From Escherichia coli (GTDB lineage Bacteria; Pseudomonadota; Gammaproteobacteria; Enterobacterales; Enterobacteriaceae): DNA of 64,000 nt. How positions within the stretch are numbered: position 1 is the first letter of the stretch; every line of letters starts with the position of its first letter. The position numbers are program-made. Shown here piece by piece: positions 33,001 to 36,000 of the stretch. The stretch is taken from assembly GCF_965641715.1 (NCBI RefSeq), contig NZ_OZ282453.1, one strand, 5' to 3'.

Positions 33001-36000
33001 GCATACCCACAACCATGCCTAAGCATGTGAGGATGAATATTAATATTCATATTGTGACTATATTTCTTACACATCTTATACACATATTGTCTCGATATTT
33101 TATTTCCTTGACAAGAAAGAAATAAAGAGTCTTCAAAAGGTTTTTTTACTATGTTATCACGTAGTGCTAGCCATTTTTTTAATAACAGAACAGTTTCTTT
33201 TTGCAGGGGATGTACTGTGGATAATCCATTTTTTAAACGCTTGATATATATTGCTGACTCTGAAAAGTCAATGTCGCTAATCTTTAGTGCAATAAGCTCG
33301 CTTACCCTAAGGCCATGTACATATGCCATTTGTAACATGGCTTTATCTCTAATTTCATTTTTTGAACCGTTGATGGCTTCAAAAAATAACAACCATTCAC
33401 TATGAGTAATAAATTTGCGCATAATATTACCAGTTATACTAATTAAGTTAAAAAATAAACTATAAATACCAGAGCCTGGTATTATTGCTTGTTTTTTATA
33501 AGCAAATAATGAGCTGGGGTTTAAATTATGCCACTAAATGGATATTCATCAATACCCCGCCAGAGAGATAGTTGCCCAGGGGGTATAGATTATTATTAGT
33601 CAACCAATGAGCATAAATAAGCACAAGGAGGTGTGTATTGCGAATAGTAATTCAATGCCATGCTGGTAGTTTTTTTGTGGTGAAAATATTTGTACCTTTT
33701 TGTTTACGGATGAAAAATAAACAGCCATATTATTTTGGTTAATTGTTGTGTTAGTTTTAACACTCGGTGATGTTTTTTGTTATAGTGCATTAATTTTTAA
33801 ATAAAAAAATTCATACATTCATGGATGTAATATATACAAGATGCAATGTTAATTTTAGATAAAATATTAATTGCATTGGATACTTTTTAAATATGCCGAT
33901 GTTGAGCTTAATTTTATGAGGGAGTGCTATTTCGGGTTGTAGGACTTTTTTATAATCATCTTATGGGCTCTTTATATTTAAAGGAGGGTTTTGAACGATA
34001 GGTACATAACGAAGGTTGTTTATATGCGTTTACAAACTATTAATTAGATTAGGTGAATTTTAATAAATTAATCTATAATCATACAGCAACTATATGAATT
34101 ATATTATTGACTAAATGTAATTCTTTCATCATAGTTGACATGGCTATTTTATATAAATAGAGGTGATTTATGCAAAACAGAAAATTTTTAACGCATCATG
34201 AAATTAATTTACTACTTCAATCTGTAAAACAAAAGAGTTGCTCTTCACGCGATGTTTGCATGATTTTATTGGCTTATTTTCATGGTCTGCGTGTTAGTGA
34301 GCTCTTATCTCTGCAGTTGTCGGATTTAGAACTAACTACAGAAAAAATATATATTCAACGGATAAAAAATGGATTCAGTACAGTCCATCCACTTCAAAAG
34401 GAAGAGGTGATTGCAATAACAAACTGGCTGAATGAAAGGAATTCATTAAATGTTAAACATTTCAATGATAACCCGTGGTTATTTGTTTCCCGAACAGGAA
34501 AACCATTATCGAGACAACGATTTTATAACATAGTTTCTGCTGCGGGTAAAAATGCAGGTTTAAATATTAAAGTTCATCCACATATGTTACGCCATGCATG
34601 TGGTTATTCACTAGCAGATAATGGTGTGGATACCCGTCTTATTCAGGACTATCTCGGGCATCGTAATATCAGGCATACGGTAATTTATACTGCTTCTAAT
34701 TCAATGAGATTTGAAAAAATGTGGGGGAGAGGTGACGCAAAAAAGCAACATTTTGACCCAAAATGTAAACCCAATCTTTGTTTAGAAATTCTCGTATAGA
34801 AAAACATTTTTTTCTATAAAAAACATTAAATTTACTGATTTAGATCAATGTGTGGCGTCAATCTACACATAAAGAGGTAGATTTGTCTTCTTTTTAATCT
34901 CTGGCGTATAAAGCCAAAATGTAAATAACAATCAAAATTATATTCTGAATTAAAATAAATACGCAGGTTTTTTACCTGCGTTTTGTGCTATTTATAGTTA
35001 ATTAAATTAATGTTGTCAAAATGGGTCATTTTGTAAACCTGTGCCTCAAGGTTTGTCTCCCCCCGGTGTGCAAAGCAAAAGGAAATTGGGAAAGGGGATA
35101 ACAGGAAATTGATTGCATGGTTTTGATTACGACGACAAAAAATATTTTTATAATTCAAGCAATTAAGAGTATGCGTTGGCGGGGTTTTTCGTACGTGAAA
35201 GTCATCGCTGTGGACGACTATTCTTCTCTGATTCGTGATTTTGGCACATCTTGCTTTCGGGATGAGCAATCGTTGTTGTTACCTGTATTCCCTGATAATG
35301 ATTCTACTACCTGTATACGCTCACTGTATTTCATTCACCAATGGCTAAAAAGCCAGCCTGTCAATATTCCGTGCCTGGCATGGGGGGATAATGGTGTAGT
35401 TAGTAATAAAGGCATACCTTTCATACCGTGGAAATTAACAGCAGAGCAATTTTGTTTCTATATAGATAAATTTATCAATGGCTGGAGGTGCAAAAAAAAT
35501 ATTCGCGCGAATCATAAAGTTTCTTTTTTAGAACGACAATTATCCCCGAGGGAGAAAAGTATCTTTATATATACCAAGGAAGGAAAAGATATTGCATGGA
35601 TCTCGAACACCTTGGGTATATCCAGTAAGACTGTGTGGACGCATCGTCGTAGAGCTATGGATAAACTCGGGGTAAAACGTTTACATCAATTTATAAATAT
35701 TCCGCGTTCCCTTATTAGTGAAAATATTCAATTATAATGTACGTTCAAGAGTATTAGTGTTATGAATAAAATATATAAAGTCATTTGGAACCATACAACC
35801 CAAAAATGGGATGTTGTGTCAGAATTGACGAGTTGTAGAAAAAAATGTAAATCAACTCGCTTAGGAATTGCTTTATCAGCAATGGTTCTGGGGGGCGTTA
35901 TTGCAATTAATTGCAATAACGCAATGGCAGATGTCATATTGTCACCAGACTGGCGTCCGGGTACGAATAACTCGGGTGTTGGGGCTGCAACAGTAAGTGG

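What the first reader, a model, noticed from the sequence alone, without database searches (positions are those of the whole stretch)
34754..35039. Candidate invertible switch: 7-bp inverted repeat plus flanking 8-bp direct repeat, with an internal perfect hairpin
TGACCCA (34754-34760) and TGGGTCA (35022-35028) are inverted copies ~270 bp apart, each followed by TGTAAACC. The left repeat lies in the 3' end of recombinase 2, as fimS does with fimE. An 8-bp-stem hairpin with T-run (34961-34987) sits inside. A 7-bp inverted repeat alone is expected by chance in ~300 bp of AT-rich DNA, so this is suggestive only.
Basis: inference. Interest (0 to 1): 0.7.

Follow-up and report, generated by a model that had tools for sequence, protein, structure and literature searches.

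The report
Known E. coli ipuS phase switch

Summary
The interpretation, an invertible switch served by the neighbouring recombinases, is also correct. The element is already known. It is ipuS of E. coli (Battaglioli et al. 2018, PMC6083910; confirmed in PMC6458436).

The gene order is dsdC, ipuB (-), ipuA (+), ipuS, ipuR (LuxR-type regulator), upaE (2639-aa autotransporter). RefSeq annotates near-identical genomes in the same way. The window differs from CFT073 ipuS by 4 SNPs in 331 nt. The 7-bp cores, flanking arms and hairpin are identical, with 261 nt between the cores.

Inverting 34761-35021 in silico shortens IpuA from 209 to 198 aa and changes the last residue from K to F, as published. 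The window is therefore in the OFF orientation.

On sequence statistics alone the 7-bp repeat is not beyond chance. The identification rests on context and on near-identity to the characterised element.

All 236 complete E. coli genomes that carry the locus are OFF, as are 24 metagenome contigs. No ON assembly was found.

One small point goes beyond the two papers read. The internal hairpin looks like an intrinsic terminator on both strands, and the 2018 paper does not mention a terminator. Novelty: already known. Interest: low.

The parts
32853..33422 (-). ipuB, a 189-aa Fim-type tyrosine DNA invertase
   Evidence: ORF. Its best NCBIfam hits are the tyrosine-type DNA invertase subfamilies NF007370 and NF007371, at 204.9 and 186 bits, just under the curated cut-offs. 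RefSeq names the orthologue ipuB. The motifs GLR, HxxRH and a late Tyr are present.
34170..34799 (+). ipuA, a 209-aa Fim-type tyrosine DNA invertase in its full-length (switch OFF) form
   Evidence: ORF. NF007370 scores 251 bits and NF007371 238 bits, both above their cut-offs. RefSeq names it ipuA. The last 12 codons, 198-209, lie inside the invertible segment.
34748..34766 (.). Left (ipuA-proximal) recombination site: 7-bp core TGACCCA (34754-34760) flanked by the dyad arms ACATTT and AAATGT
   Evidence: Sequence. Arm symmetry is 6 of 6 next to the core. The site is identical in CFT073 and in 20 of the 23 metagenome contigs that reach it; the other three differ by single changes, two of them outside the 19-bp site and one in a low-coverage contig.
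34761..35021 (.). Invertible segment of ipuS, 261 nt between the cores, here in the OFF orientation
   Evidence: It aligns with CFT073 ipuS with 4 SNPs and no indel. The papers give about 260 bp (PMC6083910). In-silico inversion gives a 198-aa IpuA ending in F.
34788..34820 (-). Candidate sigma-70 promoter of the switch. It points leftward (antisense to ipuA) in OFF and would point at ipuR after inversion.
   Evidence: Two overlapping hexamer pairs on the minus strand each match 4 of 6 plus 4 of 6. They are TTTATA-16-TATACG (34820-34793) and TAGAAA-17-GAGAAT (34816-34788). The predicted start is near 34786 or 34781, inside the ipuA tail. This fits the published 5' RACE description (PMC6083910), but the published hexamers are in a figure I could not read.
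34961..34984 (.). Perfect 8-bp-stem hairpin with T-rich tracts on both sides, terminator-like on both strands
   Evidence: The terminator scan hits both strands. Fold energies are -14.8 kcal/mol on + and -13.0 on -, with z about -5 and -4.6. The sequence is identical in CFT073 and in 22 of the 25 aligned sequences, window included.
34998..35005 (.). The single PacI site (TTAATTAA), off-centre in the element, used in both papers to score orientation
   Evidence: It is the only site in 34700-35100. The assay is described in PMC6083910 and PMC6458436.
35017..35033 (.). Right (ipuR-proximal) recombination site: core TGGGTCA (35022-35028) flanked by the dyad arms CAAAA and TTTTG
   Evidence: Sequence and arm symmetry. 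It shares the 10-mer GTCAAAATGG with the right repeat of K-12 fimS. It is identical in all 24 usable metagenome contigs.
34764..34771 (+). TGTAAACC, left copy of the 8-bp direct repeat; the outer part of the right-hand arm of the left site
   Evidence: family D18. The reading as part of a recombinase-binding arm is inference.
35032..35039 (+). TGTAAACC, right copy of the 8-bp direct repeat; the outer part of the right-hand arm of the right site
   Evidence: family D18. The reading as part of a recombinase-binding arm is inference.
35117..35737 (+). ipuR, a 206-aa regulator with a LuxR-type C-terminal helix-turn-helix; first gene controlled by the switch
   Evidence: ORF. It has weak C-terminal matches to EvgA and BglJ type regulators. 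RefSeq annotates it as a helix-turn-helix or LuxR C-terminal-related regulator.
35762..43681 (+). upaE, a 2639-aa autotransporter adhesin; second gene controlled by the switch
   Evidence: ORF. The autotransporter beta-barrel domain TIGR01414 scores 396 bits. RefSeq annotates it as phase-variable autotransporter adhesin UpaE.

Best explanation
This is ipuS, the third Fim-type invertible promoter switch of E. coli, in its OFF orientation.

Mechanism:
- The tyrosine recombinases encoded next to it, IpuA and IpuB, and also FimE, FimX and weakly FimB encoded elsewhere, bind the arms around the two 7-bp cores. They exchange strands within the cores and flip the 261-nt segment 34761-35021.
- In the orientation seen here, the promoter inside the segment points back into ipuA. 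IpuA is made full length (209 aa), and ipuR-upaE downstream is silent.
- After inversion the promoter sits next to the right-hand core and drives ipuR (LuxR-type regulator) and upaE (autotransporter adhesin).
- Inversion also makes IpuA end 11 residues early, with F in place of K198.

Shown by experiment in the literature for the CFT073 allele, which is about 99% identical:
- the inversion itself and its breakpoints;
- which recombinases act on the element;
- a transcription start inside the element;
- ON-dependent expression of ipuR and upaE.

Shown here: the identity of the window's element with that allele, its orientation, and the coding consequence of inversion.

Inferred here:
- The TGTAAACC direct repeats are the outer parts of the recombinase-binding arms.
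- The internal hairpin acts as a terminator that ends ipuA transcripts and blocks read-through into ipuR in either orientation.
For: Context:
- The gene order is dsdC, ipuB, ipuA, switch, HTH regulator, UpaE. RefSeq gives these names in 236 E. coli genomes that are at least 97% identical across 32850-35120, CFT073 among them.
- IpuA passes the curated cut-offs of the tyrosine-type DNA invertase subfamilies. IpuB hits the same two families best.

Identity with the published element:
- Window 34730-35060 against CFT073 shows 4 SNPs and no indel. The cores, arms, hairpin and PacI site are identical.
- In-silico inversion gives a 198-aa IpuA ending ...HFDPF. That is the published 11-aa truncation with a K-to-F change (PMC6083910, Fig. 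1 legend).
- There is a single off-centre PacI site, as used in the published orientation assay.

Site and promoter features:
- Each site has dyad-symmetric arms around the core, as expected for a tyrosine-recombinase site.
- The right site shares GTCAAAATGG with the right repeat of K-12 fimS.
- Candidate 4/6 plus 4/6 promoters on the minus strand predict a start inside the ipuA tail, as the paper states.

Literature: inversion, breakpoints, recombinase specificity and ON-dependent ipuR/upaE expression are reported in PMC6083910 and PMC6458436.
Against: - Nothing here shows that this particular strain flips the element, because only one assembled orientation is available.
- No ON-orientation assembly was found. 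There were 0 of 236 complete genomes and 0 of 24 usable metagenome contigs.
- That absence fits a switch whose population majority is OFF, but it gives no independent natural evidence of inversion.
- The 7-bp repeat is not statistically distinctive on its own.
- The window carries 4 SNPs inside the element relative to CFT073. One of them, A at 35009, was seen in none of the 25 metagenome contigs. It lies 8 nt outside the right arm, and its effect on switching is unknown.
Confidence: 0.95

Rival explanations
1. The repeats are a chance coincidence in AT-rich intergenic DNA, and nothing inverts here.
For: Shuffles of the region give about 4.8 perfect 7-bp inverted pairs at this spacing. The composite of inverted repeat plus direct repeat is not enriched over shuffles across the window, at 10 against 5.9. 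No ON-orientation assembly was found.
Against: The element is about 99% identical to CFT073 ipuS. The breakpoints of that element were sequenced in both orientations by two laboratories, at exactly these cores (PMC6083910, PMC6458436). Inverting at these cores reproduces the published change in the IpuA C-terminus.
Confidence: 0.01
2. The element is ipuS but is locked or impaired in this strain. Its own SNPs or a recombinase defect would make it a fixed OFF allele.
For: There are four SNPs relative to CFT073 inside the element. The A at 35009 occurs in none of the 25 metagenome contigs. Every assembly examined is OFF.
Against: The cores and dyad arms are identical to CFT073. ipuA and ipuB are intact ORFs with the catalytic motifs. 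Recombinases encoded elsewhere also act on ipuS (PMC6458436). A uniform OFF state in consensus assemblies is what a switch with an OFF-majority population would give.
Confidence: 0.04
3. The functional inverted repeats lie elsewhere, for example in the 747-bp ipuB-ipuA intergenic region 33423-34169, and 34754-35028 is a bystander.
For: That region is long, AT-rich and full of imperfect inverted repeats (I1, I5, I6 and others).
Against: All 236 genomes are colinear in a single BLAST piece across 32850-35120. The genome-wide SVRE screen in CFT073, with each recombinase overexpressed, found only fimS, hyxS and ipuS (PMC6458436). The published breakpoints are those of the flagged repeats.
Confidence: 0.01

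Closest known systems
ipuS of uropathogenic E. coli CFT073 (Battaglioli et al. 2018, mBio, PMC6083910; Russell et al. 2019, mSphere, PMC6458436)
   Same: It is the same locus and the same element. It shares the gene order ipuB, ipuA, ipuS, ipuR, upaE and identical 7-bp cores, arms, hairpin and PacI site. The spacing of 261 nt, the OFF orientation seen in the CFT073 reference assembly, and the predicted IpuA truncation on inversion are also the same.
   Different: There are four SNPs inside the element, at 34853, 34881, 34994 and 35009. The window's strain is otherwise closest to E. coli A30, at 99.6-99.8% over this locus. It also carries a prophage just beyond the island.
fimS, the type 1 fimbrial switch of E. 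coli, with FimB and FimE
   Same: It is a short invertible promoter element next to Fim-family tyrosine recombinase genes. It has short inverted-repeat cores with flanking recombinase-binding arms. The block GTCAAAATGG is shared at the right-hand site. Recombinases are shared between the two switches (PMC6083910, PMC6458436).
   Different: fimS has 9-bp cores (TTGGGGCCA) and spans 314 bp including the cores. Its left repeat starts 49 nt after the fimE stop, so inversion does not alter the recombinase protein. ipuS has 7-bp cores, and its left core lies inside ipuA. The controlled genes are a regulator plus an autotransporter rather than a fimbrial operon.
hyxS, the FimX-dependent switch controlling the LuxR-type regulator HyxR
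   Same: According to PMC6083910 and PMC6458436, it is a Fim-type invertible element beside its recombinase gene. From my own knowledge, not tested here, it controls a LuxR-type regulator.
   Different: hyxS has 16-bp inverted repeats and is inverted only by FimX (PMC6083910, PMC6458436). I did not compare the sequences here.

Membership tests
ipuS (E. coli invertible element upstream of ipuR-upaE) | Lies between ipuA and ipuR-upaE, with ipuB divergent upstream | tested here: met
   ORFs, family assignments, and RefSeq annotation of colinear genomes including CFT073.
ipuS (E. coli invertible element upstream of ipuR-upaE) | Bounded by a pair of 7-bp inverted repeats, the distal one inside the ipuA coding sequence, with about 260 bp invertible | tested here: met
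   TGACCCA at 34754-34760 falls in ipuA codons 195-197 and TGGGTCA is at 35022-35028, with 261 nt between them. The spacing is the same in CFT073.
ipuS (E. coli invertible element upstream of ipuR-upaE) | Inversion removes 11 C-terminal residues of IpuA and replaces the new terminal K by F | tested here: met
   In-silico inversion takes IpuA from 209 aa to 198 aa, ending ...HFDPF. This matches the Fig. 1 legend of PMC6083910; the paper's main text says K-L.
ipuS (E. coli invertible element upstream of ipuR-upaE) | Sequence identity with the experimentally characterised CFT073 element | tested here: met
   There are 4 mismatches and no indel over window 34730-35060.
ipuS (E. coli invertible element upstream of ipuR-upaE) | Promoter and transcription start inside the element, within the part that encodes the full-length IpuA tail | tested here: inconclusive
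   Two candidate 4/6 plus 4/6 hexamer pairs on the minus strand predict a start at about 34781-34786. This fits the text of PMC6083910, but the mapped start and hexamers are in a figure I could not read. Hexamer matches this weak are common.
ipuS (E. coli invertible element upstream of ipuR-upaE) | The segment actually inverts in the cell population | not testable with these tools
   No reads are available. No ON orientation was found in 236 complete genomes or 24 metagenome contigs. Inversion is shown by experiment for CFT073 only (PMC6083910, PMC6458436).
Fim-type tyrosine-recombinase promoter inversion switches (fimS, hyxS, ipuS) | An adjacent FimB/FimE-family tyrosine recombinase with the catalytic residues | tested here: met
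   IpuA is above the cut-offs of NF007370 and NF007371, and IpuB hits the same two families best. The motifs GLR, HxxRH and the late Tyr are present in both.
Fim-type tyrosine-recombinase promoter inversion switches (fimS, hyxS, ipuS) | Recombination sites built as a short core between dyad-symmetric binding arms, resembling fimS half-sites | tested here: met
   The arms are ACATTT/AAATGT around the left core and CAAAA/TTTTG around the right core. The 10-mer GTCAAAATGG is shared with the right repeat of K-12 fimS and occurs only twice in the 64-kb window. Overall similarity to fimS is modest.

The most novel reading that the evidence does not exclude
The internal hairpin (34961-34981) is a working two-way intrinsic terminator, so ipuS would be a promoter-plus-terminator cassette.

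- In OFF it would end ipuA transcripts about 160 nt after the stop codon and shield ipuR-upaE from read-through.
- In ON it would sit about 35 nt after the new, earlier ipuA stop and upstream of the switch promoter. The ipuA mRNA would then have a different 3' end in each phase.
- In OFF the switch promoter would also fire antisense into ipuA.

Together these would give orientation-dependent control of the recombinase itself, comparable to the orientational control of fimE by fimS. The 2018 paper contains no mention of a terminator. I did not search the 2019 paper for the term.
Probability: 0.4. Interest if true: 0.3.

Novelty: already known. Interest (0 to 1): 0.12.

Why it matters
ipuS is one of three interlinked phase switches in extraintestinal pathogenic E. 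coli, alongside fimS and hyxS, and they share a pool of five recombinases. Its ON state drives the adhesin UpaE. In the 2018 study the ON state reduced motility, increased adherence to kidney cells and gave an advantage in mouse kidney colonisation (PMC6083910).

For this scan, the point is that reading raw sequence alone correctly picked out a real, experimentally validated inversion switch from a statistically unremarkable 7-bp repeat, using the gene context. No new biology follows from that. The only additions here are a survey and a hypothesis.

- Survey: every one of 236 complete genomes and 24 metagenome contigs carries the switch OFF.
- Hypothesis: the conserved internal hairpin acts as a two-way terminator.

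Tried and rejected
- **ON orientation in complete genomes.** I built the ON version of 34700-35080 and searched 5,426 complete E. coli genomes. No genome covered 80% or more of it, against 235 for the OFF version. With the longer query 32850-35120, all 236 genomes were colinear in one piece.
- **ON orientation in metagenomes.** An exact scan for the ON left junction gave 0 hits. A degenerate pattern matching either state at the right junction gave 25 contigs, all OFF. One of them, L021, is a chimeric low-coverage contig whose break is not at the repeat. L009 has homopolymer-type differences at the left site at about 2.8x coverage.
- **Statistical support for the repeats alone.** The repeats are not distinctive. 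The identification therefore rests on context and on identity to CFT073.
- **Fixed-register comparison with fimS.** Aligning 37-mers centred on the cores was uninformative, because the cores differ in length (9 against 7). Only the shared 10-mer at the right site stands out.
- **Choosing between the two promoter candidates.** The published hexamers are in a figure that is not held as text, so I could not decide.
- **Not done.** I did not look for ipuS-like switches in other species and did not compare with hyxS. The element was already identified, so neither would change the verdict.

Full report
**1. Check of the observation**

- TGACCCA is at 34754-34760 and its reverse complement TGGGTCA is at 35022-35028, separated by 261 nt.
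- The 8-mer TGTAAACC follows each core after a 3-nt spacer, AAA on the left and TTT on the right, at 34764-34771 and 35032-35039 (family D18).
- The left core lies in codons 195-197 of a 209-aa ORF, 34170-34799.
- A perfect 8-bp stem (ACGCAGGT / ACCTGCGT, loop TTTTT) occupies 34961-34981 and is followed by TTTTG. It folds at -14.8 kcal/mol with z = -5.0.

- Shuffles of 34700-35120 (32% GC) contain on average 4.8 perfect 7-bp inverted pairs at a comparable spacing.
- Adding the requirement of direct identity after the core does not lift the pair above background across the 64-kb window. There were 10 such pairs against 5.9 in block shuffles.

**2. What it is**

The surroundings settle the question.

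- Upstream lie two Fim-type tyrosine invertase genes in divergent orientation, 32853-33422 (-) and 34170-34799 (+).
- Downstream lie a 206-aa regulator with a LuxR-type C-terminal helix-turn-helix (35117-35737) and a 2639-aa autotransporter (35762-43681).
- In megablast against 5,426 complete E. coli genomes, 236 carry this locus.
- RefSeq annotates it as ipuB, ipuA, helix-turn-helix regulator and phase-variable autotransporter adhesin UpaE.
- CFT073, the strain in which the switch was discovered, is among them.
- Aligned with CFT073, window 34730-35060 has four SNPs (34853, 34881, 34994, 35009) and no indel. Both cores, their flanks, the hairpin and the PacI site are identical.

The literature describes this element precisely. 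Battaglioli et al. 2018 (PMC6083910) report the following:

- ipuS is a roughly 260-bp invertible element bounded by 7-bp inverted repeats.
- The distal repeat lies inside ipuA.
- Full-length IpuA is made in OFF.
- In ON there is an 11-residue truncation with a changed terminal residue.

A second laboratory confirmed the 7-nt repeats by cloning both orientations (PMC6458436).

I inverted 34761-35021 in silico. IpuA becomes 198 aa and ends ...HFDPF instead of ...HFDPKCKPNLCLEILV. That is 11 residues lost and K198 changed to F, as in the legend of Fig. 1 of the paper. The paper's main text says K-L, and the sequence supports F.

The window therefore holds ipuS in the OFF orientation. The single, off-centre PacI site used in both papers' orientation assay is at 34998-35005.

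**3. How it works**

*Shown in the literature for the CFT073 allele*

- IpuA (both full-length and truncated), IpuB, FimE and FimX invert the element in both directions.
- FimB also inverts it, with low efficiency (PMC6458436).
- 5' RACE finds a transcription start inside the element only in locked-ON cells. It lies in the part that encodes the full-length IpuA tail.
- ON raises ipuR and upaE expression. ipuR rose about 1,600-fold and upaE about 33-fold under IpuB overexpression (PMC6458436).

*Seen here: site architecture*

- Each recombination site has the architecture expected for a tyrosine recombinase, a core between dyad-symmetric arms.
- The left site is ACATTT-TGACCCA-AAATGT. The right site is CAAAA-TGGGTCA-TTTTG.
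I read them as part of the recombinase-binding arms, which is inference.
- The right site shares GTCAAAATGG with the right repeat of K-12 fimS. That 10-mer occurs only twice in the window.

*Seen here: promoter candidates*

- Two overlapping candidate promoters lie on the minus strand, each matching 4/6 plus 4/6. They are TTTATA-16-TATACG and TAGAAA-17-GAGAAT, within 34788-34820.
- They predict a start near 34781-34786, inside the ipuA tail. This fits the published description.
- I could not tell which of the two is the published one.
- After inversion this promoter would lie at about 34962-34994. Transcription would start roughly 120 nt upstream of the ipuR ATG.

*Hairpin (inference)*

- The hairpin scores as terminator-like on both strands. 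Fold energies are -14.8 and -13.0 kcal/mol.
- In OFF it lies about 160 nt after the ipuA stop and before ipuR.
- In ON it would lie about 35 nt after the new ipuA stop and upstream of the relocated promoter.
- It could therefore end ipuA transcripts and insulate ipuR from read-through in both phases.
- The 2018 paper raises blocking of read-through as a possibility, then reports the promoter. The word terminator does not occur in it.

**4. Search for natural ON copies**

- The ON version of 34700-35080 found no genome with 80% or more coverage. The OFF version found 235.
- The longer query 32850-35120 was colinear in one piece in all 236 genomes. This also argues against an inversion in the ipuB-ipuA intergenic region.
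- In metagenome contigs, the ON left junction gave no exact match.
- A pattern matching either state at the right junction gave 25 contigs, all OFF. One of them is a chimeric contig unrelated to the repeats.
- Consensus assemblies report the majority orientation. The result therefore indicates an OFF-majority state and does not argue against switching.

**5. Comparison with known systems**

- It is a member of ipuS. Every defining feature that can be tested from sequence is met. Only inversion in this strain, and the exact promoter, could not be tested.
- It works like fimS, with three differences. The cores are 7 bp rather than 9. The left core lies inside the recombinase gene, whereas the left repeat of K-12 fimS begins 49 nt after the fimE stop. 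The cargo is a regulator plus an autotransporter rather than a fimbrial operon.

**6. Verdict**

The element is already known and well characterised, so interest is low. The most novel reading still open is that the conserved hairpin acts as a two-way terminator, which would couple ipuA mRNA fate to switch orientation.

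Noticed in passing
window 44712-64000: Colinearity with E. coli A30 stops at 44711, inside what is the argW tRNA-Arg gene in A30. Beyond that point the window holds a lambdoid prophage. It encodes a Bet-like annealing protein (49176-49961), an O-like replication initiator (54129-55073), an endolysin (58852-59328) and a large terminase subunit (61466-63088). It also carries tRNA-Asn and tRNA-Thr at 58147-58302. No intact tRNA-Arg is detected in the window.
   Followed up: partly
window 34758-34769 and 34914-34925: There is an exact 12-nt direct repeat, CCAAAATGTAAA. The end of the left core plus its inner arm is copied once more inside the invertible segment, and these are the only two copies in the 64-kb window. 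It is present in all 23 metagenome contigs that span it and in CFT073. It may be an extra recombinase-binding site or a coincidence.
   Followed up: partly
window 42619-42672 (inside upaE): A hexanucleotide tandem repeat (CCACAG, about 8 copies) encodes the PQPQPQ linker of UpaE. It is an in-frame repeat that could vary in length between strains.
   Followed up: no
window 32458-44711: The whole ipuB-ipuA-ipuR-upaE-ompH-like block lies between dsdC and the argW tRNA-Arg position. Its left end is low in GC, at 31-38% over 32-36 kb. This fits a small genomic island at a tRNA gene. Only 236 of 5,426 complete E. coli genomes carry it.
   Followed up: partly
window 35009: The window has A where CFT073 and all 25 metagenome contigs have G. 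The position is inside the invertible segment, 8 nt from the right arm. It is a private SNP of unknown effect.
   Followed up: no
PMC6083910, Results text versus Fig. 1 legend: The paper's main text calls the terminal substitution of truncated IpuA K-L, while the figure legend says K-to-F. The sequence gives F, from codon TTT.
   Followed up: yes
L021 (OJKD01001847.1) 1-1049: This metagenome contig joins window 35369-35003 (reversed) to 35683-36375. It is a fold-back or chimeric assembly. Its break is not at the ipuS repeats, so it is not evidence of inversion.
   Followed up: yes
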